Shown piece by piece: positions 13,699 through 57,200 of a stretch of 64,000 nucleotides of DNA. Below the pieces are notes generated by a model. The model was not told the DNA's origin, ran no database searches, and was given only the letters and a program-made list of their open reading frames with translations. The position numbers and the translations under genes were made by a program. The stretch is taken from assembly GCA_964520655.1 (NCBI GenBank), contig CAZFNI010000002.1, positions 128,770-192,769 of the forward strand, in the 5' to 3' direction. This stretch comes from an uncultured Planctomycetales bacterium. GTDB lineage: Bacteria; Omnitrophota; Gorgyraeia; Zapsychrales; Fredricksoniimonadaceae. The first letter of the stretch is position 1; each line of letters opens with the position of its first letter.

Positions 13699-13728
13699 TG
13701 TCGCAAAAAGTATATAGTTTTTGCGACA
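13699..13728. promoter_or_regulatory. Palindrome TGTCGCAAAAA-N8-TTTTTGCGACA, 18-47 bp upstream of the abiEi start; candidate AbiEi autoregulatory operator
   Basis: Seen directly; consensus shared with 11471-11502: TGTC(A/G)CAAAAA...TTTTTG(T/C)GACA. Confidence 0.45.
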
Positions 13729-14117
13729 TACTGTCAAGCCATTTTTAGGAGAGGAATCGACGAAAATAACATTCTTTAATGTTCATTAAATAGTGAACAT
13801 TGGCACAAGCTGAACATTCGCAAGGGGCATTTCAATGGCGCAAAAAGTGGATAGTTTCTGTGGACACATTTATGTCAATTCATGTCACTCAAAAACAGCC
13901 TTTTTGACCACCGCAGGAGCATGTAGAATGCCTCTAAATACGCCTATTCTCCGTCCAGAAACGATTGTTTTTACCATTCTGAATAAGATTGCCACGGATG
14001 CCGATTTGAGTGACATTGACATCAATTTTTTGGGCCATAATCACTGACAACCTGCGCCTCGCCCGACCCGCATCCCCACACCCCCCCTGGAAGGACCCGT
14101 AAACAAAAAACCTATTT

Positions 14118-15248: not shown

Positions 15249-15432
15249 TAATACCTCCTGAAGCGATTAAGCCTCATAATCGCTTCACTATATGAGGCAA
15301 TTATACTATTTAATCGCATCAATAACAAATTATTTTTTTATTTTAAAGGTGAGATAAAGAAGGGTTAATCAATACCAACAACAGCCTCAATAAGCTCCTG
15401 CATGGTGCGTCTATATTGTGGCCAATGGCCAC

Positions 15433-15625
15433 CCATATGTCTCCAAAAAGACCTTCAAAATTTACCTCCTAGAAAAGACATATAGATAGTGCCGTTTCCA
15501 CAGTTTCTAATATAAATTGACGTCCAGCCATATGTTTCTAAAAACACTTTCACAAACTTCTCCTAGTATAAATAGTGCCAGGTTCTATTTAATCGTGCGC
15601 TGTCCCCTATTTTTCAACCACCAGT
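15433..15625. repeat. Two tandem ~95-bp degenerate repeat units in AT-rich intergenic DNA; third partial copy at 16713-16762
   Basis: CCATATGTCTCCAAAAAGACCTTCAAAATTTACCTCCTAG...ATAGTGCCGTTTCC (15433-15527) versus CCATATGTTTCTAAAAACACTTTCACAAACTTCTCCTAG...ATAGTGCCAGGTTC (15528-~15625). Confidence 0.5.
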
Positions 15626-15769
15626 AAAGTATTTCCAACAATCTTTAACTAAAGCAATTATTCCCCATCCACATATCCCCCATATAAAATACTTCAAATA
15701 ATTACAGGTTTCTGCTATTTCAGCTAAATGCCTCTCAATTTGTTGAAGTGTATATTGTTTATCATCCAT
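15614..15769 (-). CDS. 51-aa peptide with a C-terminal transmembrane helix
   Basis: GGAGG is 6 nt upstream of the ATG (complement at 15767-15769). MDDKQYTLQQIERHLAEIAETCNYLKYFIWGICGWGIIALVKDCWKYFTGG; begins 14 nt after the stop of the 284-aa gene. Confidence 0.35.
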   Translation of the reverse strand: MDDKQYTLQQIERHLAEIAETCNYLKYFIWGICGWGIIALVKDCWKYFTGG

Positions 15770-15783
15770 ATAAACCTCCATTC

Positions 15784-22351: not shown

Positions 22352-22813
22352 TTAATTGTTCTCTTCTTTGGATCTGTTGATCTTAAAATACTCTTCAGTG
22401 ACTGTCTGTGTTTTTTCAAAACGGTGATGGATACGATAACATAAAAAATAAAACAATGGTTTCACCGGATTGGTGAATTGATCAAAGAAAACATGCACGG
22501 TCAATCCCACCGCCGCACCCAAAAACAGCGGCCCCAGCTGATAGACCGTAATGATCAGCCACAACAACAATAGGTATTCATATCCATGAAAAAACAAGAA
22601 CAGCTTGGGATATTTGTTGTAACAGCAGAAATCCCAAAGATCCTTGTAACGGAACGGGAACTTTTTCTTAATGATCCAATATTCCAAATGATGATCCAGG
22701 TCGATCAACACCCCGCTTAAGAAACAGACCGCCGTCGCCGGCCAAGAGTGAACAACGCCCTGGAAACCTAGCGCAACCCCTGCTGACACCGCAACATGAT
22801 AACTGGCTTTCAC
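22352..22813 (-). CDS. Membrane-bound metal-dependent hydrolase (DUF457/YdjM-like)
   Basis: HVAVSAGVAL...IDLDHHLEY pattern. Confidence 0.55.
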   Translation of the reverse strand: MKASYHVAVSAGVALGFQGVVHSWPATAVCFLSGVLIDLDHHLEYWIIKKKFPFRYKDLWDFCCYNKYPKLFLFFHGYEYLLLLWLIITVYQLGPLFLGAAVGLTVHVFFDQFTNPVKPLFYFLCYRIHHRFEKTQTVTEEYFKINRSKEENN

Positions 22814-23076
22814 TTGATCAATATTTCCTTTTCCTTGCGGGACAATTTCTTGATCTTGATCTCTGCCTTTAACGCCCCGCTTAAAGTCCGAAACTTTTTC
22901 AAATAGACCAACTCTACTGGTCCTTTGCCGCGCAGATACTTAGCACCCTTGCCGTTATTGTGGTCAGCAAGCCTTTTTTCAATATCATTGGTATAACCCG
23001 TGTATAGCGTGCCCAAACGGCATTTGACCATATATACACAATACAGCGGCGTAAGGCTATTTTTTCCAACGGCCAT
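22810..23076 (-). CDS. GIY-YIG nuclease-superfamily small protein (UPF0213-like)
   Basis: YCVYMVKCRLGTLYTGYTNDIEKRLADHN; start taken at the internal MAVGK rather than the longer ORF. Confidence 0.65.
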   Translation of the reverse strand: MAVGKNSLTPLYCVYMVKCRLGTLYTGYTNDIEKRLADHNNGKGAKYLRGKGPVELVYLKKFRTLSGALKAEIKIKKLSRKEKEILIK

Positions 23077-32790: not shown

Positions 32791-33762
32791 ATGCAGATCG
32801 GCCAAGTTAATATCGATAAACCCTTATGCCTTGCTCCCATGGAAGACGTTACCGAGCTTCCGTTCCGTATCATTTGCAAACGTTTGGGTGCGGATATCGT
32901 CTATACGGAATTTACTTCTTCTGAAGGGTTGATCAGGGAAATCCCCCGTATCATGGAAAAAGTCCGTATCTGCGATGAAGAACGACCGGTATCCATTCAA
33001 ATATTCGGCGGCCGGCCAGAAGCCATGGGCGGTGCGGCCGAGGTCATTGAAAAACTAAACCCTGATTTTATTGATATTAATTGCGGCTGCTGGGTTAAGA
33101 ACCATGTGGCCCGCAATGAAGGCGCGGGATTGCTGCGCGACCTGCCCTTGTTTGAATCGGTTGTCAAAGCAACTGTCAAGGGCACTAAACTGCCGGTGAC
33201 CGTCAAAACACGTCTGGGCTGGGATGAGAATAGCATTGTCATCACCGATGTCGCCAAAATGGTTGAGAACGTCGGAGCCAAAGCATTGACCCTGCACTGC
33301 CGCACCCGTTCCCAGGCACACAGCGGATTCGCGGACTGGAACTGGCTGGAAAAGATCAAAAAAGTGATCAAGATCCCCTTGATCGGCAATGGCGATGTCA
33401 CAAGTCCTGAGGATGTCAAGGCGATGTTCGAAACCGGCTGCGATGGGGTGATGATAGGACGTGGAGCGATCGCTAACCCCTGGATATTCCGTCAGGCTAA
33501 ACATTACCTTAAAACAGGCACATTAGAGCCAGAACCAACCATTGAAGAAAAAATCAACATGTGTATTGAACATTTGCGTCTTAATGTGCAATATAAAGGC
33601 GAGCGTTATGGTGTTTTGACCTTTAGAAAACATTATGTGGGCTATTTAAAAGGACTGCCCAATATCACACCGGTCAGGACAATGCTCATGACATTCACAG
33701 AATTAAACCAGGTTATTGACTGCCTTAATCAATATTTGGCGAACCACCATGAAAAAGTTTGA
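32791..33762 (+). CDS. dus: tRNA-dihydrouridine synthase
   Basis: LAPMEDVTELPFRIICKRLGADIVYTEF and the INCGCW catalytic Cys region. Confidence 0.85.
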   Translation: MQIGQVNIDKPLCLAPMEDVTELPFRIICKRLGADIVYTEFTSSEGLIREIPRIMEKVRICDEERPVSIQIFGGRPEAMGGAAEVIEKLNPDFIDINCGCWVKNHVARNEGAGLLRDLPLFESVVKATVKGTKLPVTVKTRLGWDENSIVITDVAKMVENVGAKALTLHCRTRSQAHSGFADWNWLEKIKKVIKIPLIGNGDVTSPEDVKAMFETGCDGVMIGRGAIANPWIFRQAKHYLKTGTLEPEPTIEEKINMCIEHLRLNVQYKGERYGVLTFRKHYVGYLKGLPNITPVRTMLMTFTELNQVIDCLNQYLANHHEKV

Positions 33763-35140
33763 TATCATTGTCATCGGTTCCGGCGGCGGTGCGAAGATAA
33801 CGTCCCCTGCCGCAAGCATGGGACTTAAAGTCGCCGTCATTGAAAAAGACAAACTGGGTGGCACTTGTCTTAACCGCGGCTGCATCCCCTCGAAAATGCT
33901 CATTCATCCGGCGGATGTGGCGCAGACGATCAAGTCCGCGCATCGTTTCGATATCATCAACAACCCGCAATTCGACGTCAATTTTGCCAAACTCATCGAA
34001 CGCATTTCCGCGACGGTTGACAGCGATTCCGCCAAGATCGAGAACAGCTATAACAAACACCCCAACATCGACTACTATCACGGAACAGCCAAATTCCTCG
34101 ACAACTATACAGTTGAAGTTAACGGCGAAGAGATCACGGCAGAAAAAATCTTCATCGCTGTTGGGACAAGACCTAGCATCCCTTCGATCCCTGATCTTGC
34201 TGGCACACCGTTTATGACATCCACGGAAGCTTTGCGTAACACCCATTTACCGCGCTCAATGGTCATCATTGGTGCAGGCTACATCGCCTGTGAATTAGGC
34301 CACGCTTATGGGGCGCTTGGCACTCAAACTCATTTTTTAGTGCGATCCTCTTTTTTACGCAACGAGGATGGCGAGATCGCGGCGGAATTCAACCGCACCT
34401 TTAGCAAACACCACCATGTACTCTTGGGCAGCACCCCCACAAAAGTTGAATATGATCATCACACCTTCACGGTTCATTACACACAAAACGGCGTTGAACA
34501 AAAAATAGAAGCTGAAGCATTGCTTGTGGCCACAGGGATCACTCCTAACACGGACACGCTTGATCTGATCAATACTGACATCGAACTAGCGCCGGGGAAT
34601 TTCATTAGGACCAACGATCATCTCGAGACCAATGTTCCCGGGATTTACGCGCTGGGCGACTGTATCGGCCGCTATTTCTTTCGGCATAGTGTAAACTTCG
34701 AAGGAGAATACCTATTCGACCAAGTCTTTAACGGCAAGTCCAGAACGCCGATCGTTTACCCGCCGATACCCCATGCGATCTTTACTGACCCGCAAGTTGC
34801 CGGCGTCGGGAAAACGGAAGAACAGCTGATCCAAGACGGCACCCCTTATGTCGTCGGCTCAAATCCTTATAAAAGCTCGGCGATGGGCATGGCCCTCTTA
34901 TCTGATTCAGGCTTCTGCAAGATCCTTTTCTGCCAGAAAACACGCAAAATATTAGGCGCCCACATCATCGGACCGGAAGCATCCAACATGATCCATATGC
35001 TGATCGCCATGATGAACAAAGACGGCACCCTAGATGATCTTTTACGCATGGTCTACATCCATCCCGCGCTGCCCGAGATCGTCCGCAATGCGGCACGCAA
35101 AGCCAAGACCGCATTTGATAATCATTTGATAAGAGCCTAG
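33749..35140 (+). CDS. FAD-dependent pyridine nucleotide-disulfide oxidoreductase (dihydrolipoamide dehydrogenase-like)
   Basis: GSGGGA FAD motif and GGTCLNRGCIPSK redox-active disulfide; start at MKKFD. Confidence 0.75.
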   Translation: MKKFDIIVIGSGGGAKITSPAASMGLKVAVIEKDKLGGTCLNRGCIPSKMLIHPADVAQTIKSAHRFDIINNPQFDVNFAKLIERISATVDSDSAKIENSYNKHPNIDYYHGTAKFLDNYTVEVNGEEITAEKIFIAVGTRPSIPSIPDLAGTPFMTSTEALRNTHLPRSMVIIGAGYIACELGHAYGALGTQTHFLVRSSFLRNEDGEIAAEFNRTFSKHHHVLLGSTPTKVEYDHHTFTVHYTQNGVEQKIEAEALLVATGITPNTDTLDLINTDIELAPGNFIRTNDHLETNVPGIYALGDCIGRYFFRHSVNFEGEYLFDQVFNGKSRTPIVYPPIPHAIFTDPQVAGVGKTEEQLIQDGTPYVVGSNPYKSSAMGMALLSDSGFCKILFCQKTRKILGAHIIGPEASNMIHMLIAMMNKDGTLDDLLRMVYIHPALPEIVRNAARKAKTAFDNHLIRA

Positions 35141-35144
35141 GGAA

Positions 35145-35579
35145 CCCTCAGGGACACGGGATGCTTCTTTCCAGATGCTCACCCCCCCAGCCCCCACAAC
35201 AGATGCACGTTAGTTGAATGCAATGCTTGAGGTTAATCGTTGAGTATGAATTAATAGGGTTGCATCTGGTGGGGGACGTTCGCATCTTGAAAGAACATCC
35301 CGTATCCCTGAGGGTTGGCTAGCAAATCCTTCCAAAGCTACCAAAGAAGAACAGGGTAATTTCATGAGATGCGAAACGTCCCCCGTCACATGCTTACCTG
35401 ATTAGAACTACAAACAATTTACCTCAACCGTACGCCAAACGAACTAGTGCATGTGTTACGGGGGTTGGGGGGTGTTGAGCGATCGAATGAAGATTACCCT
35501 GGTCTTCTTTCATGGCGAGGATGTTCAGTCATGCCGGTGACAGATACCAATGAATGGAAGCATCCCGTGTCCCTGTGGG
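35145..35579. other. Intergenic element with nested and alternative long complementary segments; candidate structured RNA or switch
   Basis: Arm A 35145-35178 (CCCTCAGGGACACGGGATGCTTCTTTCCAGATGC) is near-perfectly complementary to 35282-35314 and also to 35556-35579. The C-rich 35181-35197 pairs with the G-rich 35459-35476, and GGGGGACGTT 35271-35280 pairs with AACGTCCCCC 35375-35384. It lies between convergent gene ends. Confidence 0.35.
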
Positions 35580-35607
35580 TTACATGCCTCTTATGCAAAT
35601 TAATTTG

Positions 35608-36594
35608 CTACTGATTGATGCGGGCATTGCGGATAACGGCATTCTTGATGACAGCCCCGCTGCGGTAAAGATCTGCGATCTCCTGAGCACTTAAGGCTCG
35701 ATTATAGATGCGAATATCATCGAGATTTCCTGAAAAATACTCATTTGATTGAGCAGAGTTTGACCCTAAATAAACACTGACTGACGTGCTCGGAGAACTG
35801 CTTAATGAAGATAATGCCGGCGACTCTACTTGATTATCCAAATAAATACTGAGTGTTGGTGACGTTACGTCCCCTCCTACAACAACCGCAAAAAAATGCC
35901 AAACATTCAAAGAAGGCGTGAACGTACCAACATGCTGAAACAGTCCACCCGAAGTAGCGGCATAATATTGCAAAACACCGTTATCTATTCTTACTAATTT
36001 AAGTAAATTATGTCCTGAAGTCGCAAAATACTGACCAAAAATAGTTTGTAAAGAAGGAGATGATGATGTCTTGAAGAACCAACCCGATATCGTTAACGGC
36101 ACTTGCAAGGTATTGAAAGTAGTGGAAGCCCCCAAATTCACATATCGATTTGCAGCGCCGTCAAAACCTATACACCCTCCTCTTTTACAGTTAGACAGCC
36201 ATGTAGGAGCATTGACAAATGATCCATTATTATTGTTCCCGCTCCAATCAATCACTGTGGTTCCAGACCCTTCATTGAATTTCCACCACCCCACTAAGCC
36301 ATTCCTTAAGTCCGCATTTGCTGGATCAGAGAACCCTGCAATAAGCAACAACATCAGCACTTTGATGGCCAAGGCATGGATAGTGCTCTTAATAGGATCT
36401 AAAGCCTTATAGATCATTCTATGTTTTTCTAGATGGGACTTACCGTCGAACACCGAACTCTTGATCGTCACTCGAAAATGGCTGCCTTGCTTAGCTCCGG
36501 CGTGTCCGATATGTTTATGGGAATCATCCACGACTTCAAGAAGATCCGGTGAGAAAGCATCGGTTAAGAGGGCTTTAATCTTTGTTTTGCTCAT
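35608..36594 (-). CDS. BolA domain fused in-frame to a LamG-like (concanavalin A-like) jellyroll domain
   Basis: N-terminal ~80 aa is BolA (DDSHKHIGHAG...SHFRVTIKSSVFDGKSHLEKHRMIY...IHALAIK). The remainder has LamG-like features (WHFFAVV..., GNLDDIRIYNRALSAQEIADLY). Confidence 0.55.
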   Translation of the reverse strand: MSKTKIKALLTDAFSPDLLEVVDDSHKHIGHAGAKQGSHFRVTIKSSVFDGKSHLEKHRMIYKALDPIKSTIHALAIKVLMLLLIAGFSDPANADLRNGLVGWWKFNEGSGTTVIDWSGNNNNGSFVNAPTWLSNCKRGGCIGFDGAANRYVNLGASTTFNTLQVPLTISGWFFKTSSSPSLQTIFGQYFATSGHNLLKLVRIDNGVLQYYAATSGGLFQHVGTFTPSLNVWHFFAVVVGGDVTSPTLSIYLDNQVESPALSSLSSSPSTSVSVYLGSNSAQSNEYFSGNLDDIRIYNRALSAQEIADLYRSGAVIKNAVIRNARINQ

Positions 36595-38846: not shown

Positions 38847-38853
38847 TCCGCTT

Positions 38854-39090
38854 ATGGAACTGACATTATACCATTTTGAATCTTGTCCCTACTGCCGGCG
38901 TGTCCGGGATTTCATGACATCGAACAATATCACGATCCCTATGAAGGACACCCAAAAAGATACTAGGAACCGCGAGGAGTTGCTCAAGATCGGCGGAAAA
39001 TCACAGGTTCCCTGCCTGGTCATTAACGGCAAGGCTCTTTACGAATCTTTAGACATCATCGACTGGTTAAAGAATAATTACAAAAAATGA
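38854..39090 (+). CDS. grx: Glutaredoxin
   Basis: CPYC active site, 78 aa. Confidence 0.8.
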   Translation: MELTLYHFESCPYCRRVRDFMTSNNITIPMKDTQKDTRNREELLKIGGKSQVPCLVINGKALYESLDIIDWLKNNYKK

Positions 39091-39344
39091 CCCTGACAGA
39101 GATCCAACAAAAAATTCAAACAGCCATACCAGATGCCGAGGTTCACGTCCTTGATCCGATGCAGGACGGTCAGCACCTTCAAGCATTGGTCATCTCCCCT
39201 GTATTTGCCGGTTTGCCGGTTTTCAAACAACAACAAATGGTCATGGCCGCGGTCAAGGACATCTTCACCGTTGTCCATGCCCTTGGCCTGAAAACATTCA
39301 CGCCTGAAAAATGGCAGGAGGTTAAACACAATTATGTTAACTGA
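39087..39344 (+). CDS. BolA/IbaG-family protein
   Basis: 85 aa, ...VHVLDPMQDGQHLQALVISPVF...VHALGLKT. Confidence 0.7.
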   Translation: MTLTEIQQKIQTAIPDAEVHVLDPMQDGQHLQALVISPVFAGLPVFKQQQMVMAAVKDIFTVVHALGLKTFTPEKWQEVKHNYVN

Positions 39345-45549: not shown

Positions 45550-47507
45550 GTCAACTGTCCTTGTAAGCCTTTAAGATCAGAGATCGGCAGTCCGCACACA
45601 CCCTTCCTGCAAACGCTGACCTTAAAAGGTTGGTCCGTTGGTTTGATCTTAAGCACTAAGTTTGGTACATAGCATTTATACACCATTTTCCTGATCTGCA
45701 CAAGTTGTTGTGCGCTAACACCACCCGTTACTTGAACATCTACCGGGCCATCGCGCTGCATACTCATCGCTAAAAGAAAATACGTATACCCGTGAGGCGC
45801 TTTAACCAGGACAGGATAGAATCGCGTTTCTAATAAGCTTAATTTATCTCTGTATTCCTTTTTACCCGTTATAAAGAGCAATTTAGCAAAAACCATGGCT
45901 GCCATGGAATTTCCCGACGGCATGGCACCATCATAGATCTCGATCGGCCTGACGATCAACCCGGAATCTTCCTGTGTCATATAATATCCGCCGCGGCCGT
46001 CACTAAAACGGCGACAGCATTCCTCTACAAGATCCTCTGCTGTCTTAAGATACTTCTCCTGAGACGTTGCTTCATATAACATGATCAACCCATAAGAGAA
46101 ATAAACGTAATCATCCAGCATTCCGTTAATTCCTGATGCGTGAAGCAAAACGCCGTCCTTTAAATAATTCTGCAGAATATATTCCGCGCAATGTTGTGCC
46201 TGTTGAATGTATGCATCTTCTCCTAATGCTAGACCTCCCACACACAACGCCGCGATCATCAACCCGTTCCAGTCAGTCAGGATCTTGTCATCCAGATGCA
46301 GAGGCATGCGTTCTCGTCGGTATTCCAACAGCTTGCGGCGGGCAATATCCATCCGTTCCCCATCTGCAACAACGATATCTTTCGCAGAATACAGGATATT
46401 CACCGAAATAAACTCGCCATGCGGGTCATGGGCAACATTCCCATCAGGACTTACGCCATGATACATTTTAAACAGTTTGGCTTCGCTTTCGCCCAGGACC
46501 GCGGTGATCTCATGGTCAGCAAATACATAATATGCCCCCTCTTGCCCCTTACTGTCAGCATCATAGGCGCAATAAAATCCACCCTCAGGGTCTTTCATTT
46601 CAGCCAATACATAATCCATTGTGCGCCTGGCGATCTCTATCAATGCGCGATCTTGCGTCTTCTGGTAGCACTGGACATACGCAATGACAAGCAATGCCTG
46701 GTCATATAACATCTTCTCAAAATGCGGCACTTGCCATTCCTGGTCCGTTGCATAACGGTGAAAACCAGATGCCAGGTGGTCATGGATGCCCCGCTTCGCC
46801 ATCGTTGTCAATGTATGTTCAACCATGGGGAGTGTCGGACTTTCCTTGGAATCCATTGATAGCAGGAATGATAATGTGTGCCCCATGGGAAATTTAGGAG
46901 CATTGGAGAATCCGCCATGAACCGTATCATACTGTGCAGCTAACTTTTGAACGGCATCATCTAAGATAGAATAGTCGGTAGGTCCAGCATCAGTTTCTGC
47001 CGTCATCGACTGGCGCAGTATTGAAATAAGCTCATCTGAAGAAGAGAGTATACCCTCATGATCAGAGGTCCAGGCATTATGGATCGATAAAAGGACATCT
47101 TTAAATCCCGGAGAACCCCACTTGGCAGCAGGCGGGAAATATGTGCCCCCATAAAATGGTTTACCGTCAGGTTTAAGAAAAACAGACAGCGGCCACCCGC
47201 CTTGCCCTGCGATGGCCATGACCGCATTCATATAAATGTGATCGATGTCAGGACGTTCCTCACGGTCAACCTTGATGGCAACAAAATATTGATTGAGGAT
47301 ATCCGCGGTTGCCTGATCCTCAAAACTTTCATGTGCCATAACATGACACCAATGGCAGGTTGAATATCCGATAGAAAGGAAAATGGGCTTATGTTCTTTG
47401 GCGGCTTTCTGGAATGCCGCGTTCCCCCATGGGAACCAATGGACTGGATTTGTGGCGTGCTGTCTTAAATACGGACTGCGTTCAGCGGCTAAATGGTTAG
47501 TCACCAT
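45546..47507 (-). CDS. DUF255 thioredoxin-domain protein (YyaL/SPATA20-like; thioredoxin plus six-hairpin glycosidase-like domain)
   Basis: [39 protein letters not shown] signature. Confidence 0.8.
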
Positions 47508-50500
47508 TATGGAGAGTCAAACACTTCCAGGGTCTTTTTTATAGCTTCATCCCGGTCTACAGGGGGCAATTCATTTGTTTTATCAGATCTTTTATCAACG
47601 GTTACCGGGGACTGGGAAACAGGAGCCTGGATCTCCATTGAACTTACGGGAACAGTGACGGGAACCGGCTTCTCCATATTCGTCTTGGCCTGTTCCATGA
47701 ATTTTCGGGTTTGTTTAAAATCAGGCAAAATATCTTCCAGGTCTTTCAATTTATTATACGCGGCCTCATAATTCTCTTTCTTATACAACCCCATCGCTTC
47801 TTCATAGATCGCAGAGGCGCTTTCATTAAGCCGCTGCTCGATGGCTTTACGTTCATCTTCCAATTGCTTCTGATGTTCTTTGGCCTTTTTCGCTAGTTCT
47901 TCTTTTTTCTTATTCTCGATGATCTCTTGTTCTTTTTGTTTTTTCAATTCGATCTTACGCTGCTGCTCTTCCATCTTGGCTTTGGCAAGTTGATTCTTTC
48001 GATCCGCTTCCTGCTGCTTTCTTGCTTCTGCTTCCTGCTTTAGCTGATCCTTACGTTTCTCGATAAGTTCTCTCGCATGCTGATCTTCAAAATGCTTCTT
48101 TCTTTTATTAGAAAACTCTACCTGTTCCTGACGAGCTTTGTCATTATTCTGGACAGATTCTGCTTCATCCATCGAGATCGGTTTTACTGGTTTTGACTCT
48201 TCTACCTTGACCGGCTGTTCTTGCGCAGCAGGGGTAAGAGGTACACGCCGGAACATAAGTTCTTCATCTTCTTTTTCACGTTTGCGTTGTTCCCTTGCGC
48301 GTTCTTCATCTAATCGACGGTTCTCGCGTTCCTTAAGCCTTAAAGCTTCCATACGAATTTTTTCGCGCTGGCCGGATTCTTCGGCATACCTGCGCTGCCG
48401 CTCAAATTGAGCGTTCAATTCGACCTGACGGGCACGCTCCTTTTGTGCCAATGCGTTCGCCATCTTTTGTTTTCGGATCTGCTCGGCAATAAACAGGCTC
48501 CGTTCACGTTCATGGGCAGCACTGGCCCTGGCTGTCACTTTTTCATAATATCGTTCGATCTTGATCGAATACGCCTTCGCGGCTTTATACCCGTGATTAC
48601 TCAGATCATCAAAGATGACCTTTGCCGCCGTATATTTCTTAGCCTTATATAAAGCGATCGCGTGATCAAAGACTTCATCTTTGGAACGTTCTATTTCCAC
48701 CTGCTCATAATCCTGCCTTTCGCGCTTGGCTTTTTCGGCAGCAAGACGTTCAGCACGCTTTAACTTTTCTTGCTGTGCTTCCTCAAGAAGCATGGCCTTT
48801 GCCTGAGCCTGACGCTCCTTGCGATCCTTAAGCAAAACCTCCCGTGGTGTCAGTTTTTTGTTTATCGTCTTACTGACAACAGGCGCCTTTGGCTCGATCG
48901 GTTTTTGCTCAACATCAGTTTTTTCTTTAAGTTTTTGTTCAGGTCTTTCTTTTGGTTTAGCTTTTTCCTGGGATTCTTTGTTATCTTCCTGAACGATCGT
49001 ACGTTTAAGCGCTTCTAGTGTTTCCAATAAACTCTCTAATTCGGAGAACTTTGCCTTGGCCAGATTAAAATCTTTAGCCTTGGAAGCCGCCAAGATCTCA
49101 TCGTTAAGATTGACGGCCTTATCTGCCAATGTTTGAATCTCCGATTCCTGGGCCTGTCGCAGTTGTCTCCTGCGTTCTTCTTCCGCTCGGCGTCTTTCCT
49201 CTTCAGCCGCTTTCACCAGGATAGCCTCATGCTGGCGTTTTGCTTCCAGCGCCTGCAAACGGTCCTCTTCTTTGATCGTTCTTTCCAGGACGGCCTGACG
49301 CTCGGCCTGTTTGGCATCTTCTTTAATATGCGCCAAATACCAGCGGGTCATTTTGTAATTTGGAGAATCTGTTTCGATCTGGAGGAAAGAAGTGTAGGCT
49401 TCTTCAAATTTCTGATTGCGTAAATGAATGATCGCTTCATCGTATTGATATTTGATCTGGGCCATACGCTGTTCGTGAGCGATCTTTTCCTGACGTTTGC
49501 GCTCACGTTCTTCATCTTCACGCAGCTGGCGCAGGATAGATTCTTTTTGCTGTTTAATGCGGTTAAGCATCTCATCGACCTTGGCCATTTTCTTTTTGAC
49601 CGGGGCCATGCGTTTATCTTCTGCCAACATGCTGATCTTCTGCAAGACCTGGGCAGAACGCTGGGCCAACGATTCAATGATCTTAGCCTCGTCGATCTCC
49701 TGCTCTTTTGTCAATACGGTTTTGGATGGTTCTTGGACAATTGGAGGGATTTCACTCTTTTTTTCTTCATTCTTTTTTACTTCAGGCTTTTGTTCCGGCT
49801 GTTTGGCCTGTTCAACCCTGACCGCCTCTTTTTTAACGCGCTGCGCTTCCCGATTTAGGATCTCTTCTTCTTTGGCCTTGCGCCTGGCTTCAGCTTCCTT
49901 GGCCAGCATATCCTGTTTTTGTTTACGGGCCTCCTCCTGTGCTTGCCGCTTCTTTTCCATCTCAGCTATCTGGGCCTGCTTTTGAATATCCTTTTCTTTA
50001 ATAAGAGCGATCTTGGCAATATACGCTTTTGTGGAGCGATAGCCCGGTAATGTTTTATCCACATCATTGAATTTTTCCAAAGACTCATCGTAAGTCTTTT
50101 TATCAAACAAGTTGACCGCGGCTTGGTATACAAAAGCGACCTGTTCCTCCAGCTGCTTGATACGCTGCTTTTCTTTCTCCTGGGCTTCCTTCTGTTCAAG
50201 GGCTTCTTTTTTACGTTTGGCTACTTCTTCTTCCCATTGCTGAAGGGCAAGTTCCTTGGCCTTGATCTGATCAACACGGGCTTGTTCTGCCGCCATATCT
50301 TTGTCTGCACGCGCGATGTAATTACGGGAAGCTTTATAATCCGGAACAACCCATTCCACCTCTTCAAACTTCTTTTTCGCTTCCATATACTTCTTGTTCT
50401 TGTATAAACTCACGGCTTCATTATAAACAGTGTCCGCCTGGGCATTGATCTGGTTCTTCCTGTCTTTTTCTTTCTGCTCGATCTCCTTATGCCAGGCTTC

Positions 50501-51283
50501 CTTTTCACGCTGACGGGCACGCTGGGCTTCCTCCTGCTGGCGGGCTTCTTCCTTTTGGTCCGCCTTGGAAAGAGCAACTTCCGTCTGAATGATGTTCTGG
50601 TCAATGATCCTCAAATAACTATTTGTTCCCTTATAGTTATCCGACAATTCCTGAACATGAGAGAACATCTCTTTGGCTTCTTTATATTTTTTCTCTTTAT
50701 AATAGGCAACAGCCTGTTCGTAGGCGCCTGCAGCATCGGAAAGCTTAACCTGCTTTTCCTGAATCTGCAGACGAACCTGCTGCTTCTCCTGTCTCTTGAT
50801 CGCGATTTCCTGGGCTTTTAATTTTTCCGCGCTTTGGTTGATGTATTTCGTCATTTCAGGATGTTCAGTGATATTGATGGCCTTTTCAAAATATTCGCGG
50901 GCCTGATCAAACTTCCCTTCATCCTGCAGCTCCATCCCTTTTTCGTAATATTCCCTGGCCCGCTCCTCACGTTTTTGATTGCGTTTGACAACCGACTGCT
51001 CTTTGATCTTATCGTTGACGCGTTTTATATTTTCGCGGGATTTGATGATGAGTTTTTTCAGATCGTAGACGTAACTGGAAGCCGCCTCAGATGTATCCTG
51101 GTCAGAGGCAGCAGCCTCCATGTCGCCGTCTTTGGCTGGCTTGGAGTGGTCTTCATTGACAACAGCAGCAGCGGAATCAACCGAAGGCTCATTATCAAGC
51201 CCAGTAGCGGGCTGACCGGCGAACGCCGGAGAAGCTATTAATAATAGGAAATAAAGAATAACATATGACATAATTTTTATCAT
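47507..51283 (-). CDS. 1258-aa secreted, highly charged coiled-coil protein with seven dispersed TPR-like helical-hairpin modules
   Basis: Start is an ATG whose complement lies at 51281-51283, overlapping the giant gene's TGA (ATGA). Signal peptide [22 protein letters not shown]. Seven repeats of Y.EA..L...KKY.EAK..F..V....P.YK......Y separated by KE/RE-rich linkers. Confidence 0.7.
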
Positions 51284-54200
51284 TCTAACACACCCTTTTG
51301 AGCATCGGCTACTATTTTCTCCCATAATTTTCTCGCCTTGACATATTCGCCCGTCACATAATAATCCTGCGCGGTCTTGTTGTATTCCTGCAATTTCTCC
51401 TCAAATGCGATCTTGCCTCGGATAAATTCGGAGGCCTCATCGAACATCATCTGGCCAGCGATGATGATATCTTTGTAGATCTGCTGGGACTCTTCAAACT
51501 TACTGGCTTTCTGAGCTGCTGAAGCAAGCACGAACATATGGTTTAAGTCGACAACCACCTTGCTGTCAGGTTTTTGCAATTCCCTCGATACCATGGCCCA
51601 TGCCCATTCAGCGACCTTATTATCCAGCCACTTTTCTTTAGCCCGCTGTTTCTCTTCCGGAGAACGATCGTAAAGTTTGCCGCTCATCCGCAAGAACGGC
51701 CCCTGAGAAGTATAATTCAGATTGGTCAGATCGTCGTTAAACTGGGTAAAGTTCCAACCCAACCCCAATTGCGCGTAATCGTTGATGTTACGGGTCGCCT
51801 CCATCAATAAGCCCTGCTTGCTGTCTTTCGCTTCGACCTGGGTCAGATTACGTAATTCGGTACTCAATGTCCAATCCCGATCAACCTTGTAATTGATGCG
51901 GTGGATCATGAGCCATGTGTGCGTGCGGTTGAATTCAAATCCAGTGACTTTCTCGTCGTTGATCCTGAACGCGAACTTTTCCGCCAACTGCCAGGCATCA
52001 TTGACATCATACACCCCCTCAACGCCGAACACCTGGGTACGGCTCTGGGCGACATCAGTCACTGCACCAGCAGATTGTCCGACAGGGCCGGCATTTTCTT
52101 TATAGGCATATTGACCGATCATATTCAAACGATCGAAATTAACAGGCCTGTAGGATGCTCCCAAGATAACCTGCTTATGCCGCTCTTCGATCGCGCTGGT
52201 GGTGACATTCTCCGTCTTGGAATATTCGAGCTTTGCCGAAACGGACATGTTGTCCGTGATTTTACCCTCTAACGCATTATAAAAAACATACTGTCGTTTA
52301 TTTTCATTGCCTTCATCGAAACGGAATTCCACTTTCGCTGAATCTTTCAAACGTTCCATGGCAAGCTCAGGATCTTTCCATACATACCCCGCTCCAAGGG
52401 CGATGGCCGTCCTGTCTGTCTTTGACCCGTCAAGGTTCTGTACTTTACCTTTTTCCAAACTACCCAAAAGAGCAAGCTTGTCATTGACATCTCCGGTCAA
52501 ACCAAAAATATTGGATTGTGATACAGCCCCGCTTTGGTCGCCGACAGCGCGCGTCAAGGATGCCTCAACCTTCCTGCCGTCCTGCTCTTTGGCCAAGGCG
52601 TATTTACTGTTAGACGTTGTTCCTGTCGGTGTGATACCAAATGAACGTTCGCTGACAGCCTGAAGGCGGTCATTGATCTTCGCCTGCTGAGAGACGGCGA
52701 TCGTTGTTGTTTTTCCACCCTGGGCATTGTCATCAACCTTGACGCTGGATGCCGTGGTCAGGTTATCATTAACCCGTTTGTTGGCCTCTACAGAAATAGA
52801 ATTGCTTGCGGTCGTTGACGTATTGGTCAGTCCTTGAAGTCCGATCGTACTGGTGGTGCCCTGGTTCATGCTGACCGCTGTTTTGATCGTTGTGTCTTTA
52901 TCGATCACGCCTGTAGTCGCCGCTACCGTCGCTGTCGTCACCGTCTGACCATTAGCCGCCGCGGATTTTCCAACCAGCGCATCAACAACTGTCTGCTCAT
53001 TGATCCGGGCACTTGTTCCGACCGTTCCGGAAGTTGTTTTTGTACCCGTTGAAGAGTCCGTCGAGGAAACGGATGCCGTGGCAGAGACCTTATCATTGAT
53101 ATCCTGCTTGGCGCCAAAGGTCGTCGTCTTGGCACTCTCTCCTGTAGCCAGCTGCGTCAGCGTATAGGCCGTTGATAACGCCAGCTTATCCGTGACATTC
53201 TGGGAAACGCCAAACGTTGTCGCTGTACCCGCTTTGCTAAACGCCTCCTGAGCAGAGATCTTCAAACGGTCCGTCACTCGTCCTTGAGCGCCGATCGTCG
53301 TGATATTATTATTCGCATTGCTGATATCAAACTGCTGGCCGGCGGTTAATGTGACCCTGCCGTTAAGCGCATATTCCGCCTTCCCTGCCAGCGACTTTGT
53401 GACCTGATTTGTCGTGGTGACCAGATCCCCGATCTTATTCTTGACCTCCTGGATCTGATATGCCCCGGTCAATTTCAGACGTTCGGACTCATGCACGACC
53501 TGGACAAGAGTGGTGCTTGTTTCGCTGGCACCGACCTGGGCCACGGTTTGTAAATTGGCATTATTGATGAGTTTCTGTATATCCGTGCGGGCTGTGACGC
53601 GTGTCAACGGAGTTAGATCAAAGGTCAACGCTAAACCGGCTAATTGTTTACCTTGCTGCGACGACGATTGCACTGAGGTGAACGAATCTTCGATCCACTT
53701 GTAATACGATGCAACACCCAATCGGTTAAAGAGTCTGGCATCTCCTTTGATGCCATACGCAACACCATTGGCCGCATCACCAGACTGCAGCTGCGTGAAT
53801 GAAATACCCCCATCAGTGGACACATAGGAACTGACACCTAAGGATTGCGTTTGGGCATACTCAGCTTTCACGGTCGCATCCGGTCCTAAATGCGCGGTCA
53901 CGTCCGTACCCTTCATTTCAAAATTCTTATTGGTCTGCGTTTCTTTTACATATGTCCCGCCAATGACCACATTGTCGCCCACGGCTTGCGCGACACGCGC
54001 ACCTTCAGAAGATTCCGTTAACTTGTCCTGCACATAATATTCATAATCCGCGACCACGTAGATCGGATTGCCGTCGATCAGATCGGTTGAAACGATCGAT
54101 TCTGATTTCGCGATCATGGAAACCGGCTGCCAGAACAGGATACGCCCCTGTCCCTCGTCTAATTCATAGTCCGCCCCGTTCTTCATCTCTTTGGAAGACA

Positions 54201-57200
54201 ATACCAGACCGGTCACTTTGTCGCGTACTTCAATGCGGATCTTATCCGTTGACTGTACGACGTCCTTGTTCTTTAAGAAATATAAACTGCCGCCCGTCCC
54301 CAAAAATTCATTGTGGGATGGTCGTTGCTGGATCTCAGCATGGAACAAAACAACTTTCGTGCGGGCATCGCCGTAGGGGTTATTAGCCACGCTTTGGTAA
54401 TCTAATTTACCTCCGTAGAATGAGCGGGTGAAATTGGCAAATTCCGTATTGTTAAAATCGACCGCGTAATTGCCCCACACCGCCTGTGATTTATCCCACT
54501 GCACCATCAAATACAACGGCCCCTGAGTATCGGTCGCGTCATAATTGATCGAAGACTTATCGCCGTAGATCGGATAATAAGTGGCCGGGTCGAGTTTCCT
54601 ATAAAGCTCCTTTTGCTGGCGATCCGTATCAAAAGAAGATGTCACCAAATATTTGCCCATGATCTTGCCTTTGAGATAATAGGATGCTTTGCCTTGATGC
54701 CAGAATTTATTCTGGAAATGATCGCTGGACTGGATGGGTTCGACATTGCCGCGGTTGAAATTATAACCAACTTTGGCATCGCCCAAGCCAACGAACATGA
54801 AATAGTCATCCCCGACCTTGATCGGTCGCGTATAGCGCTCAAGGCCGACCGTTGGCGGTAATGATAACGGCACAGGCGTCAAAGACGGCGTTATTGCGGG
54901 CGGAGAGATCTGATCCAGAGGATTTGGCGGCACAATTTCTCCTTTGTCCTGAGGACCAATGACCTCCAGATTATAATCGCCGTTGGGCAGAATGATCTCG
55001 ATATTATCCGTTTTGTCCGCCGCCGTGATGCCAGCATCCAGCATTTCTTTGGGGGTCAGTCCATAATATTGTTCCAGGGGAATATCCGCAAAAACAGCAC
55101 CGCCCTTTAAGACCCGCACCGATTTGATATCCTGCCCCTGACGGTTAATGTGGATCGTCTCACCAGCGATCGTGATACCTTGCTTCTCAAGCGCATTGAC
55201 CGCTGATTGCGTATCCACCCATTTGCGGTAATTATCCGCCTGCTGTTTGCCCCAATCAGATCTTGTTTCCTTGTCTTTTTCTTTCTTGTATTCCTCTTCG
55301 GTCTCGATAACGCGTATTTCCAAGGGTTTCTCCATGGTCAGGTCACGCTCTCCCTTTTCATTCTTCACGCTGAGGACATACGCATAATGATGATCAAAAC
55401 GGATCATGCGCTCATCGTCGCCGCGGCCATTCCAGATGATCGGGTCATGGATGTTAAAACGCGTCCCGGTAAAGTGTTTGACTAATTTTTTGGTATCACG
55501 GTCGATGATGTCGAGCTGCCAGGAATCAAGGAAGGCCGCGTAATTGGTGAATATTCGAAATTGGGCCGGTTTAAAAAGGCTGGTATTATTGTAAATGACT
55601 AACGTCTCCTTGCCCTCCTCAGGACTGAACATCGCAACATTAAGTCTTGGAGCAGGCTTATTCTTATCCTGATTGAGCGCGATCTTTTCATTAAAGAAGA
55701 CTGCGTCCTTGCCCACGACCTGCTTATTGTCCATATTCACGCCAAAATTGACCTTGGAGATGGAGCCGTTGGTCACATCTACAACAACGGCCTTGTCCGT
55801 CGTTAAATAGGACCCGGGCGGCAACGTGCGTTCATCTATGCGCAGCATATGTCTTCCAGGCAAAACGCCCGGCCAGCTGTATTTCCCTTCCCTGTCCGCG
55901 GTGATGACCGTCCCGTCGTCCGTCACGATCTGGACATTGGGGATAGGCCTCTCGACAATGGTCGTCCCTTCCGTCGGATCATATTCCGGTGCATCTTGTT
56001 GGCCGTTCTCATTTAGATCATAAAACACTTTGCCGATCACTGTCCCCATGTCAAACAGCGGATCCATAACGACCTTGACCGATTTGGTCGTCGTATTAGA
56101 AATGACCAGGCCGTTGGAATATTTGGCCTGCGCCACGTTCTCATACGTCCCGCTGGCCACACCGGCACCGACAACCAACTGATATTTCAGTGTTTTAGTG
56201 ATGCCCGGACCGATCGATCCAATGGTAAAGGTCAGCGGTCGATTGCCTGAGGGGTCCGCGATCCCGATACCGTCTAACAATACGCGGTTGCTCAAATATT
56301 TAAATCCGGGTGGGATCTTATCCACGAGCACGATATTATTGATCGTTTCCGAGCTGGAAAGGTTCTGGATCGTCACCGCGTACGTCACGACATCCCCGAT
56401 GCGCACCTCTGTTTTATTAGCAGACTTCTCAATGCGTAACAGGAATCGATTAATATCCACCGGATGGTCGATCTGCAGGATCACGTTATTGACCGTAAAA
56501 GTCTCTCCCTTGGAACCCGTCGTTACCACTTTCCCAACAGGGAAGGTCGTCAGAACGGACGGATAAGTGAAATCGGGATTGGAAAGCTGGATATAATAGT
56601 TCCCGTTAGCCGCCAGGAAACTATATAAACCGTCCGTCCCCGTGACAAATGGATTTGTATCATTGCAATCCAGGTCCCTTAAGACCGTGATATTTCCGCT
56701 GCCGTCGCAGGAGCTAACCTCAGCCAAATGATTATCCGAGGCACGGTAAATAGCGACTGAGGCATCTTTGACCACATTGCCTGTCGTGGAATCAAAAACA
56801 TATCCGAAAGGATCGGTCAATGATAAACTGATCAAGTCGCTGGAGACCCCATCAACAACAACAGAGACATAATTTGTTCCTTTAAGCAAACTCGTGGTCA
56901 CCGCAAAAGAATAATTTCCTGTCCCGTCAGTAGTAGAGGATCCGATAGACGACAAGAGCAAGCTGCCTGCACTATCATTAGCTTTGACCACAACAGCCTG
57001 CCCCGGTTTGCCAACCCCTGTAATGACCGGTTTATCGCCCTTGATGCGTTCATTATTGACCGGCGATGTGATCTGTGGCACTTGCGACGTGGTCGGCGCA
57101 AGGACGACCGTCAGGTCATTTTGAGGACCAGGGACTTCAACGAAGGAACTGCTTAGAACATAAGGTGTCAAATAATTATCATCGGCAACGGTGCTGATCC

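What the first reader, a model, noticed from the sequence alone, without database searches (positions are those of the whole stretch)
35141..35607. 467-bp intergenic region between convergent genes packed with long nested and alternative complementary segments
A 34-nt arm (35145-35178) can pair almost perfectly with either 35282-35314 or 35556-35579, giving mutually exclusive alternatives. Enclosed C-rich/G-rich pairs (35181-35197 with 35459-35476; 35271-35280 with 35375-35384) nest consistently inside the long-range option. No ORF of 60 aa or more, no RBS-led frame and no adjacent recombinase were seen. Candidates are a large structured ncRNA, a riboswitch- or attenuator-like 3' element, or an invertible/recombinogenic DNA segment with 34-bp inverted repeats flanking ~100 bp. 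It did not match what I remember of tmRNA, RNase P, SRP or 6S signatures.
Basis: seen in the sequence. Interest (0 to 1): 0.65.

Follow-up and report, generated by a model that had tools for sequence, protein, structure and literature searches.

The report
Orphan composite palindrome between convergent genes
The 467-bp gap between two converging genes of an uncultivated Omnitrophota bacterium holds two diverged, oppositely oriented copies of a ~180-bp hairpin-forming DNA repeat plus a spare arm, most likely a lineage-specific palindromic repeat (MITE/REP-like) insertion and not a new functional RNA.

Summary
Window 35128-35594 folds far better than shuffled sequence: RNA -214 kcal/mol, z -13.3 on the + strand, and -210 kcal/mol, z -11.4 on the - strand.

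The region is a mosaic. Hairpin unit E1 is 35137-35322. Hairpin unit E2 is 35343-35510 and is a roughly 60%-identical inverted copy of E1, loops included. A third, solo arm (A'') lies at 35557-35594. The long-range "alternative" pairings follow from this inverted duplication.

Both strands fold equally well and show no G-U bias. Rfam gives nothing at E<=10 on either strand. There is no gene downstream that the region could regulate.

The orthologous gap is 30 bp in a relative with 86% amino-acid identity. A relative at 83% has other genes there. A relative at 95% carries an E2-type arm 17 nt after the same stop codon, in a different arrangement.

I found no other copy in the 64-kb window, in 14 related loci, or in the genome, metagenome, viral, plasmid, phage or protein collections.

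Best reading: a lineage-specific, DNA-level palindromic repeat cluster, MITE/REP-BIME-like or generated by local inverted duplication. Any effect on RNA 3' ends would be secondary. Mobility and function are unproven. Interest is modest.

The parts
33749..35140 (+). Upstream flanking gene: pyridine-nucleotide disulphide oxidoreductase (dihydrolipoyl dehydrogenase / mycothione-reductase-like). Its last three codons plus the stop (ATA AGA GCC TAG) lie inside the outer palindrome.
   Evidence: Pfam Pyr_redox_2 and Pyr_redox_dim. Homologues are 463 aa and named dihydrolipoyl dehydrogenase in Ca. Omnitrophica. TAAGAG at 35130-35135 pairs with CTCTTA at 35589-35594 in the MFE.
35137..35322 (+). Hairpin repeat unit E1 (186 bp). 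It comprises left arm A (35140-35178), a C-rich asymmetric segment CACCCCCCCAGCCCCCAC (35180-35197), an inner stem, a loop of about 50 nt (35211-35260), the G-rich partner (35261-35281) and right arm A' (35282-35322).
   Evidence: Folded alone: -96.1 kcal/mol (z -9.8) on + and -95.0 kcal/mol (z -9.2) on -. Inverted repeats I1, I4, I7. Self-alignment of E1 with its reverse complement.
35323..35342 (.). 20-nt spacer between E1 and E2. It lies close to the symmetry centre of the large palindrome.
   Evidence: It lies in the poorly paired apical region of the whole-region MFE, alongside the E1 A' arm and the start of E2.
35343..35510 (-). Hairpin repeat unit E2 (168 bp), a diverged inverted copy of E1. 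The outer arms are AAAGAAGAACAGGGTAAT and ATTACCCTGGTCTTCTTT. The G-rich segment GGGGGTTGGGGGGTG is on the + strand, so the C-rich segment is on the - strand. The loop is 35394-35446.
   Evidence: I5 and I13. Folded alone: -65.7 kcal/mol (z -5.6) on + and -63.7 kcal/mol (z -3.4) on -. E1 aligned to rc(E2) gives 105/175 identical positions including the loops, and 10 stem pairs changed on both sides but kept. Covariance model R1 scores the two cores at 131 and 133 bits.
35511..35556 (.). 46-nt tail between E2 and the solo arm. It forms only small local hairpins and has no significant structure of its own.
   Evidence: Fold of 35505-35610: z -0.1 on + and -0.5 on -.
35557..35594 (-). Solo third arm A'' (GAAGCATCCCGTGTCCCTGTGGGTT) plus an outer extension ending CTCTTAT. 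It is the inverted partner of arm A and of the last codons of the upstream gene.
   Evidence: I2, 96% complementary. Pattern search finds 2 matches against 0 expected. Alignment of E1 with rc(right half) starts at TAAGAG. The Logan contig L001 is 100% identical to the window and ends exactly at 35594.
35595..35608 (.). Perfect 14-nt AT-rich palindrome GCAAATTAATTTGC abutting the stop codon of the BolA-LamG gene.
   Evidence: I12. It appears as a separate small hairpin in the folds on both strands.
35608..36594 (-). Downstream flanking gene: BolA-LamG fusion protein (328 aa).
   Evidence: Pfam BolA and Laminin_G_3. In L003 BolA occurs alone. In L004 BolA and LamG are separate genes.

Best explanation
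The region is non-coding DNA made of repeated palindromic units. It is not a dedicated RNA gene.

A hairpin-forming unit of about 170-185 bp has long terminal inverted arms, an asymmetric C-rich bulge, an inner stem and a loop of about 50 nt. This unit is present twice in opposite orientation (E1 at 35137-35322, E2 at 35343-35510). A third, solo arm (A'') lies at 35557-35594. Because the copies are inverted relative to each other, every segment of E1 also finds a long-range partner in E2 or A''. That produces the 'nested' and 'alternative' pairings and a roughly 460-nt super-hairpin.

The cluster was inserted or expanded between the two convergent genes only in this narrow Omnitrophota lineage. 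It behaves like the extragenic palindromic repeats of other bacteria (MITE/Correia-like units arranged as a BIME-like mosaic).

Inferred steps:
- Origin by insertion of a small palindromic mobile element, followed by local inverted duplication (template switching). The outermost palindrome includes the last codons of the host gene, which points to the local duplication step.
- The arms of each hairpin stay complementary through intra-palindrome correction or selection.
- Each gene's read-through transcript would carry one unit in the same orientation, C-rich arm first. The units could therefore act secondarily as 3' hairpins that stabilise or insulate transcripts, and as RNase III substrates. 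This functional part is inference only.
For: 1. Structure is extreme and equal on both strands (z -13.3 and -11.4 as RNA, -10.2 as DNA). G-U counts show no strand bias (E1 4 vs 8; E2 7 vs 7). That pattern indicates a DNA palindrome.

2. E1 and rc(E2) align over their whole length, including loops and the asymmetric C-rich segment. This indicates duplication of a unit and not convergent stems. Each unit is still an independent strong hairpin at about 60% identity, with 10 doubly changed but maintained pairs.

3. Three copies of the A arm exist in + - - orientation.

4. The region is lineage-specific.
- The orthologous gap is 30 bp and unstructured in L003 (86% aa identity).
- L004 (83% aa) carries other genes there.
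- Other convergent pairs in the window have gaps of 3-148 bp.

5. The 95%-aa relative (L002) has an E2-type arm (39/42 nt, 93%) 17 nt after the same stop codon. Flanking coding DNA is only 87.6% identical. The arm is in E1's orientation and the arrangement differs. This fits a mobile or rapidly rearranging repeat.

6. All three short-read contig ends that face the element stop at or inside it (L001 at 35594; L002 and L011 at 56-59 nt past the stops). Long inverted repeats typically break assemblies this way.

7. There is no Rfam family, tRNA, terminator-like or promoter-like site, and no ORF of 60 aa or more.

8. TAAGAG (35130-35135, in the gene's last codons) pairs with CTCTTA (35589-35594). 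This supports in-situ inverted duplication of the outer layer.
Against: - No dispersed copies were found, so mobility is unproven. There is none elsewhere in the 64-kb window and none in 14 related loci.
- Exact-pattern scans of the public collections were also negative. GTDB species representatives gave nothing in 2 scans. JGI metagenomes gave only 2 chance hits in coding DNA. IMG/VR gave nothing.
- blastn against plasmids and phages found nothing.
- A six-frame pseudo-protein search of 5.8 billion proteins found nothing.
- The source genome itself is not in those collections, so the copy-number test is inconclusive and not negative.
- A target-site duplication cannot be established. The CTAG at both ends of E1 is self-complementary.
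- The only transposase in the window (IS3 family) has unrelated terminal repeats.
- The high identity of the arm shared with L002 could instead reflect functional constraint.
Confidence: 0.55

Rival explanations
1. One-off local inverted duplications, with no mobile element involved. Replication template switching at a pre-existing hairpin (quasipalindrome or fold-back events) generated and then extended the palindrome in situ. It persists as neutral, recombinogenic DNA.
For: - The outer palindrome includes host coding sequence (TAAGAG / CTCTTA).
- No copy exists anywhere else in the accessible data.
- The units are adjacent and inverted, as template switching would produce.
Against: - E1 and E2 are only about 60% identical, yet each keeps its own hairpin. 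That requires a long history or a strong correction process.
- The relative L002 carries an E2-type arm at 93% identity in a different arrangement, while neighbouring coding DNA is 87.6% identical. This is easier to explain by a mobile or exchanged unit.
Confidence: 0.2
2. A functional structured RNA. Either each convergent gene carries a roughly 180-nt hairpin element in its 3' UTR (terminator, stabiliser, or source of a 3'-derived sRNA with C-rich seed), or the whole region encodes one large ncRNA.
For: - Each unit sits in the same orientation (C-rich arm first) relative to the gene that would read into it. The L002 relative keeps that orientation after the oxidoreductase gene.
- Stems are maintained by 10 double changes between the two units.
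- The shared arm is more conserved (93%) than the adjacent coding DNA (87.6%).
Against: - No Rfam match even at E<=10.
- Both strands fold equally, with no G-U bias.
- The loops are also homologous between units, so the similarity reflects duplication and not structural constraint alone.
- No U-tract or terminator-like site.
- The region is absent from relatives at 86% and 83% aa identity, whose gaps are short and unstructured. That clade has an ordinary short hairpin-plus-T-run terminator-like site elsewhere.
- The same-orientation symmetry is automatic for any inverted duplication placed between convergent genes.
Confidence: 0.15
3. An invertible (phase-variable) DNA segment. Recombination between the 25-36-bp inverted arms (A/A', A/A'', or the E2 arms) flips the enclosed DNA.
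For: - Long, nearly perfect inverted arms are present.
- The unit in L002 is in the opposite orientation to the window's E2, although its arm is nearly identical.
- Contig L001, from the same strain, ends exactly at the outer edge of the palindrome. Population heterogeneity at the element is one possible cause.
Against: - No invertase or tyrosine/serine recombinase lies next to it. The only recombinase-like gene in the 64 kb is an IS3 transposase 30 kb away.
- No promoter-like site lies inside the region.
- The segment sits at two gene 3' ends, where flipping a promoter or coding cassette would have no obvious target.
- Short Logan contigs break often anyway.
Confidence: 0.07
4. An assembly or amplification artefact (fold-back chimera).
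For: Palindromic junctions are a known artefact of MDA and of some long-read assemblies (general knowledge).
Against: - The copies are diverged (about 60% identity for the units, 92-96% for the arms) and not perfect duplicates of neighbouring sequence.
- An independent short-read contig reproduces the right flank up to 35594.
- A different sample carries a related arm at the same locus.
Confidence: 0.02

Closest known systems
BIME / REP clusters (bacterial interspersed mosaic elements; REPINs) of Enterobacteria and Pseudomonas
   Same: Both are extragenic and typically lie at the 3' ends of genes, including convergent pairs. Both are a mosaic of palindromic units in alternating orientation separated by short linkers. 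Both form hairpins on either strand and are non-coding. (The description of the family comes from my general knowledge.)
   Different: REP units are 20-40 nt and occur in hundreds of copies with a cognate RAYT transposase. Here the units are 170-185 bp. Only one cluster is known and no RAYT was seen in the window. The 25-36-nt A arm is present three times but has only a 4-bp internal palindrome (CCCTCAGGG).
MITEs such as Neisseria Correia elements, ERIC/IRU, RUP, and cyanobacterial Nezha
   Same: Both are 100-400-bp non-coding elements with long terminal inverted repeats that fold into one long hairpin. Both insert in intergenic DNA, are often co-transcribed with neighbours, and are absent from the orthologous site in relatives.
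   Different: A MITE is defined by many dispersed copies and target-site duplications. Neither could be shown here. There is no IHF-like site inside the element. The terminal repeats are unrelated to the IS3 element in the window.
Quasipalindrome / template-switch inverted duplications
   Same: The adjacent copies are inverted. The outer arm includes flanking host sequence. Arm complementarity is maintained without strand bias.
   Different: Those events usually involve tens of base pairs and a single step. Here there are two full units of about 180 bp that have diverged to about 60% identity, plus a third arm.
Invertons (fimS-type invertible promoters)
   Same: Inverted repeats of 25-36 bp flank 100-390 bp of non-coding DNA.
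   Different: No adjacent recombinase, no promoter-like site, and a location at 3' ends instead of upstream of a regulated gene.

Membership tests
Any Rfam 15 RNA family (tmRNA, RNase P, 6S, riboswitches, large ncRNAs such as OLE/GOLLD/ROOL/HEARO, ribozymes) | Covariance-model match at or near the gathering score | tested here: not met
   0 matches in the whole window at gathering thresholds. 0 matches at E<=10 in 34900-35850 on both strands.
MITE | Terminal inverted repeats bounding a short non-coding element | tested here: met
   E1 arms are 33/36 complementary and E2 arms 17/18. The longest ORF is 59 aa.
MITE | Multiple dispersed copies in the genome | tested here: inconclusive
   No other copy in the 64-kb window or in 14 related loci. 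None in the public collections. The source genome is not in those collections, so its other roughly 1-2 Mb (my estimate of genome size) could not be searched.
MITE | Target-site duplication flanking the element | tested here: inconclusive
   CTAG flanks both ends of E1 (35137-35140 and 35319-35322). It is self-complementary, so it may simply be part of the inverted repeat. No direct repeat flanks E2.
MITE | Terminal repeats shared with an autonomous IS / transposase | tested here: not met
   The IS3-family element at about 3916-5058 has unrelated ends (TACTGCCACTAGTTAA...). No other transposase is in the window.
REP / BIME / REPIN | Short (20-40 nt) imperfect palindromic unit, in inverted pairs, at high copy number with a RAYT gene | tested here: not met
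   The units are 168-186 bp. Clustering in alternating orientation is present. Copy number and a RAYT gene were not found in the accessible sequence.
Inverton / phase-variable switch | Site-specific recombinase nearby, promoter or coding cassette inside, and both orientations present in the population | tested here: not met
   No recombinase within about 30 kb. 0 promoter-like sites. Orientation polymorphism is not testable without reads.
Intrinsic (Rho-independent) terminator | Short GC-rich hairpin followed by a U tract | tested here: not met
   0 terminator-like sites in 34900-35900. A related genome shows a canonical one elsewhere, in the L004 ABC2-DUF3800 gap.
Riboswitch / attenuator | Located in the 5' leader of the regulated gene | tested here: not met
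   The region lies between the stop codons of two convergent genes.
Retron msr-msd or DGR template/variable repeat | Adjacent reverse transcriptase; for a DGR, a second near-copy inside a target gene | tested here: not met
   None of the ORFs scanned has a reverse-transcriptase domain. The ORFs of at least 90 aa at 25.5-31.1 kb and 41.9-44.2 kb, and the 3330-aa ORF, were not scanned. No second copy of any part of the region exists in the window.

The most novel reading that the evidence does not exclude
The hairpin unit could be the founding example of an undescribed family of large (~180-nt) hairpin repeats in Omnitrophota. Such repeats would be kept under selection as paired, same-orientation 3'-UTR modules of convergent genes, acting as bidirectional insulators/terminators or as precursors of C-rich 3'-derived sRNAs. 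The two mutually exclusive folds (local hairpins versus the 460-nt super-hairpin) would then be functionally relevant.
Probability: 0.12. Interest if true: 0.5.

Novelty: new member of a known kind. Interest (0 to 1): 0.27.

Why it matters
Repeat elements and non-coding DNA of the uncultivated phylum Omnitrophota appear essentially undescribed; my two literature searches found nothing relevant. This locus shows that these compact genomes, with gaps of mostly under 150 bp, can still harbour large palindromic insertions.

Such palindromes have practical consequences. They break short-read assemblies: three contig ends stop at or inside this one. They are hotspots for rearrangement. They can alter the 3' ends of neighbouring mRNAs. 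Here the neighbours belong to a glutathione/BolA redox cluster next to a rapidly evolving LamG fusion gene.

If the unit proves to be multi-copy, it would be a useful marker for strain typing and for studying mobile DNA in this phylum. If it is single-copy, it is a clear natural example of stepwise palindrome growth that has engulfed the end of a gene.

Tried and rejected
**Searches that found nothing**
- Known RNA families: Rfam at gathering thresholds and at E<=10 gave nothing. ARAGORN found no tRNA or tmRNA.
- Small protein: the longest ORFs are 59, 55 and 51 aa. A six-frame pseudo-protein of the region had no relative among 5.8 billion proteins at E<=10.
- Copies elsewhere in local sequence:
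  - blastn-short of the region against the window found nothing.
  - Covariance model R1, built from the two cores, found only its two training sequences in the window and 10 of the loci; blastn covered all 14.
- Copies elsewhere in public collections:
  - The A-arm pattern in genome contigs gave 0 hits. The E2-arm pattern in genome contigs also gave 0.
  - The metagenome scan returned two hits (L009, L010). Both are the start of an unrelated AT-rich coding sequence (...ATGAAATTACCCTGGTCTTCTTC on the coding strand) and are chance matches.
  - The viral collection gave 0 hits in two scans. blastn in distant mode against plasmids and phages gave none.
- Exact look-ups of the window's GshA and of the 463-aa oxidoreductase found nothing on record. 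The source genome could therefore not be retrieved.
- Literature: two searches for Omnitrophota/Omnitrophica with inverted repeats or MITEs returned nothing relevant.

**Hypotheses tested and rejected**
- MITE derived from the IS3 element in the window: the terminal repeats are unrelated.
- IHF site, as in Correia elements: none inside the element. The one match, at 35119-35131, is in coding DNA and at the chance level.
- Terminator or promoter: none. Across 20 kb, terminator-like and promoter-like counts equal the shuffle expectation.
- Conserved hairpin after LamG or oxidoreductase genes in relatives: the gaps in L003 and L004 are unstructured (z -0.6 to -1.1). LamG homologues in L013 and L014 have no related element.
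- Homology of the L011 tail to the window tail: no significant alignment.
- Tandem repeats: only an 11-nt duplication inside the coding 3' end.

Full report
**1. Observation**

The 467-bp gap at 35141-35607 lies between two convergent genes.
- Upstream, a pyridine-nucleotide disulphide oxidoreductase ends at 35140 on the + strand.
- Downstream, a BolA-LamG fusion gene ends at 35608 on the - strand.

- 35143-35178 pairs with 35282-35316 (33/36).
- 35143-35167 pairs with 35557-35581 (24/25).
- 35183-35208 pairs with 35447-35472, and 35262-35280 pairs with 35375-35393.
- One further pair was not noted: 35343-35360 with 35493-35510 (17/18).

Folding energies are far beyond chance.

| Molecule and strand | MFE (kcal/mol) | z-score |
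|---|---|---|
| RNA, + | -214 (shuffles -139.5 +/- 5.6) | -13.3 |
| RNA, - | -210 | -11.4 |
| DNA parameters, + | -108.8 | -10.2 |

It is the most negative 300-nt folding window in the 64 kb.

**2. Anatomy**

Pairwise alignment and alignment folding show that the region is a mosaic of one repeated hairpin unit and not a single designed fold.

- **E1 (35137-35322).** It has long outer arms A and A', an asymmetric C-rich segment (CACCCCCCCAGCCCCCAC) on the 5' arm only, an inner stem (CCCCCACAACAGATGCA / TGCATCTGGTGGGGG) and a loop of about 50 nt.
- **E2 (35343-35510).** This is the same unit in reverse orientation. rc(E2) aligns with E1 over its full length: 105/175 aligned positions are identical, including the loop and the asymmetric C-rich segment. 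Its outer arms have diverged (AAAGAAGAACAGGGTAAT / ATTACCCTGGTCTTCTTT).
- **A'' (35557-35581).** This is a third copy of the A arm, alone, after a 46-nt unstructured tail.

Each unit is a strong hairpin on its own: E1 gives -96 kcal/mol (z about -9.5) and E2 gives -65 kcal/mol (z -3.4 to -5.6). Ten stem pairs differ on both sides between E1 and E2 yet remain paired.

Because E2 and A'' are inverted relative to E1, every E1 segment also has a distant partner. This fully explains the 'nested' and 'mutually exclusive' pairings. The super-hairpin (-214 kcal/mol) is about 28 kcal/mol more stable than the sum of the local hairpins (about -185 kcal/mol).

The palindrome runs slightly beyond the gap. 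TAAGAG in the last codons of the oxidoreductase gene (35130-35135) pairs with CTCTTA (35589-35594).

**3. DNA or RNA?**

The evidence favours a DNA-level palindrome.
- The two strands fold equally well.
- G-U pairs show no strand bias (E1: 4 on + and 8 on -; E2: 7 and 7).
- The loops, not only the stems, are homologous between units.
- Rfam gives no match at gathering thresholds across the whole window, and none at E<=10 on either strand of the region.
- There are no tRNA or tmRNA genes, no promoter-like or terminator-like sites and no ORF of 60 aa or more.
- The region sits at two gene 3' ends, so a riboswitch or attenuator has nothing to control.

**4. Organism and comparative evidence**

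Homologues of the oxidoreductase are named dihydrolipoyl dehydrogenase of Candidatus Omnitrophica/Omnitrophota. The lineage is poorly sampled.

| Locus | Relation to the window | What lies at this junction |
|---|---|---|
| L003 | 86% aa identity | Same gene order (Dus, oxidoreductase, BolA, GshA, GshB); only 30 unstructured bp between oxidoreductase and BolA |
| L004 | 83% aa identity | An ABC transporter, a DUF3800 gene and a separate LamG gene |
| L002 | 95% aa identity (Logan SRR12404957); coding DNA 87.6% identical | Same C-terminus (IRA-stop, with different codons); 17 nt later an E2-type arm, GTGAAAGAAGAACAGGGTAATCTTCATTCGAAGCTCAACACC, where the contig ends |
| L011 | Same sample as L002; GshA plus a BolA-LamG gene only 53% identical in protein | Contig stops 59 nt past the stop; that tail is unrelated to the window's |
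| L001 | 100% identical to the window | Contig ends exactly at 35594, the outer edge of the palindrome |

The junction is therefore variable among relatives. Other convergent pairs in the window have gaps of only 3-148 bp.

The L002 arm matches the reverse complement of the window's E2 right arm at 39/42 positions. Its C-rich arm comes first, which is E1's orientation. A related unit is thus present at the same locus in a close relative, but with a different arm type and arrangement. The shared arm is more similar than the surrounding coding DNA.

All three contig ends that face the element break at or inside it. Long inverted repeats commonly cause this, although these contigs are short anyway.

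**5. Search for other copies**

| Search | Result |
|---|---|
| blastn-short of the region against the window | no other copy |
| Covariance model R1 (from the two cores) against the window and 10 loci | only the two training copies |
| blastn against all 14 fetched loci | only the L002 arm described in section 4 |
| Exact-pattern scans, GTDB species representatives (2 patterns) | 0 |
| Exact-pattern scan, JGI metagenomes | 2 chance hits in an unrelated coding sequence |
| Exact-pattern scans, IMG/VR | 0 |
| blastn against plasmids and phages | 0 |
| Six-frame pseudo-protein against 5.8 billion proteins | none at E<=10 |

The source genome is not in these collections, so its copy number remains unknown. 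The only transposase in the window is an IS3-family gene pair at 3986-5046, and its terminal repeats are unrelated.

**6. Interpretation**

The best-supported reading (confidence about 0.55) is a lineage-specific, non-coding cluster of palindromic repeat units. It works like the extragenic palindromic repeats of other bacteria: MITE/Correia-like hairpin units arranged as a BIME-like alternating mosaic.

Shown:
- The unit structure.
- The inverted duplication.
- The lack of strand specificity.
- Absence from relatives at 83-86% aa identity.
- Presence in rearranged form in a 95% relative.

Inferred:
- Origin by insertion of a small palindromic element, followed by local inverted duplication.
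- Maintenance of arm complementarity by intra-palindrome correction or by selection.
- Secondary effects on the transcripts of both genes. Each would read into one unit in the same orientation and form a long 3' hairpin.

Rivals:
- Purely local template-switch duplication with no mobile element (0.20). It is favoured by the host codons inside the outer arm and by the lack of other copies.
- A functional 3'-UTR or ncRNA element (0.15). It is favoured by the conserved orientation and the high identity of the arm. It is disfavoured by the strand symmetry, by absence from relatives and by the lack of any match to a known RNA family.
- An invertible switch (0.07). There is no recombinase, no promoter and no target gene.
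- An artefact (0.02). It is excluded by divergence between the copies and by the independent contigs.

**7. Comparison with known systems and novelty**

The region meets the structural features of a MITE: terminal inverted repeats, small size, no coding capacity, and an empty orthologous site in relatives. The two diagnostic features, dispersed copies and target-site duplications, are inconclusive. It fails the size and copy-number definition of REP/BIME while sharing their mosaic logic and genomic position. It fails every test for Rfam families, intrinsic terminators, riboswitches, invertons, retrons and DGRs.

I file it as a new, so far orphan, sequence member of the known kind 'bacterial extragenic hairpin-forming repeat'. 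It is not a new class of element. Interest is modest (0.27): the structure is striking, but nothing points to a new mechanism. The most novel reading not excluded is an Omnitrophota-specific family of selected 3'-UTR hairpin modules. I give it a probability of about 0.12.

Noticed in passing
window 1093-15248: The left part of the window looks like a defence island. It holds a Gabija-like pair (AAA_15/OLD-TOPRIM ATPase at 2195-3850 plus a UvrD-like helicase at 1093-2208) and a type I restriction-modification system (HsdM 5064-6542, HsdS 6535-7893, HsdR 7890-10634). It also holds RadC, an AbiEii toxin with a DUF6088 partner (12055-13681), and a Fic/DOC protein (14118-15248).
   Followed up: partly
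window 3916-5058: An IS3-family insertion sequence sits exactly between the Gabija-like gene and hsdM. orfA (HTH_Tnp_1) is at 3986-4261 and orfB (rve) at 4258-5046. Its imperfect terminal inverted repeats are at 3916-3955 and 5021-5058. These ends are unrelated to the arms of the palindromic element.
   Followed up: yes
window 35608-36594; L003 5352-5615; L004 13896-14967; L011 1350-2324; L013 4372-5874: BolA is fused to a LamG (Laminin_G_3) domain here and in the 95%-aa relative, where the fusion protein is only 53% identical. In another relative BolA and LamG are separate adjacent genes, and in a third LamG is absent. The second-best LamG homologue (49% identity) sits in a phage-like contig next to an SU10-type adaptor gene. 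This suggests a rapidly evolving LamG module, possibly of phage origin, next to a conserved glutathione/BolA/glutaredoxin cluster.
   Followed up: partly
window 35128-35140 vs L002 1588-1600: The oxidoreductase ends with Ile-Arg-Ala-stop in both genomes, but every one of the last three positions uses a different codon (AGA GCC TAG vs CGC GCT TAA). The window's version is the one that is complementary to the far arm of the palindrome (CTCTTAT at 35588-35594). Either the palindrome copied the gene end, or the gene end was converted towards the palindrome.
   Followed up: partly
window 47507-61272: There are two very large ORFs on the - strand: 1272 aa (weak TPR matches only) and 3330 aa (not scanned). 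Giant genes have been reported for Omnitrophota (recalled, not checked).
   Followed up: no
window 13682-14117, 15249-15783, 22420-23056, 38847-39333: Four other gaps of more than 400 bp lie between ORFs of at least 90 aa. By synteny with L003, the last probably holds the small glutaredoxin and BolA genes. The others were not examined, and none stands out in the folding scan.
   Followed up: no
window 35112-35132: An exact 11-nt tandem duplication (CATTTGATAAT x1.9) lies inside the 3' end of the oxidoreductase gene. The 95% relative L002 has the same tandem repeat, with substitutions starting only after it, so it is coding sequence and not part of the element.
   Followed up: yes
L004 12950-12990: A canonical hairpin-plus-T-run terminator-like site (AAATGCGGGCG...CGCTCGCATTTTTAT) lies between the ABC2 and DUF3800 genes of a related Omnitrophota genome. 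This suggests that the clade may use ordinary short intrinsic terminators.
   Followed up: partly
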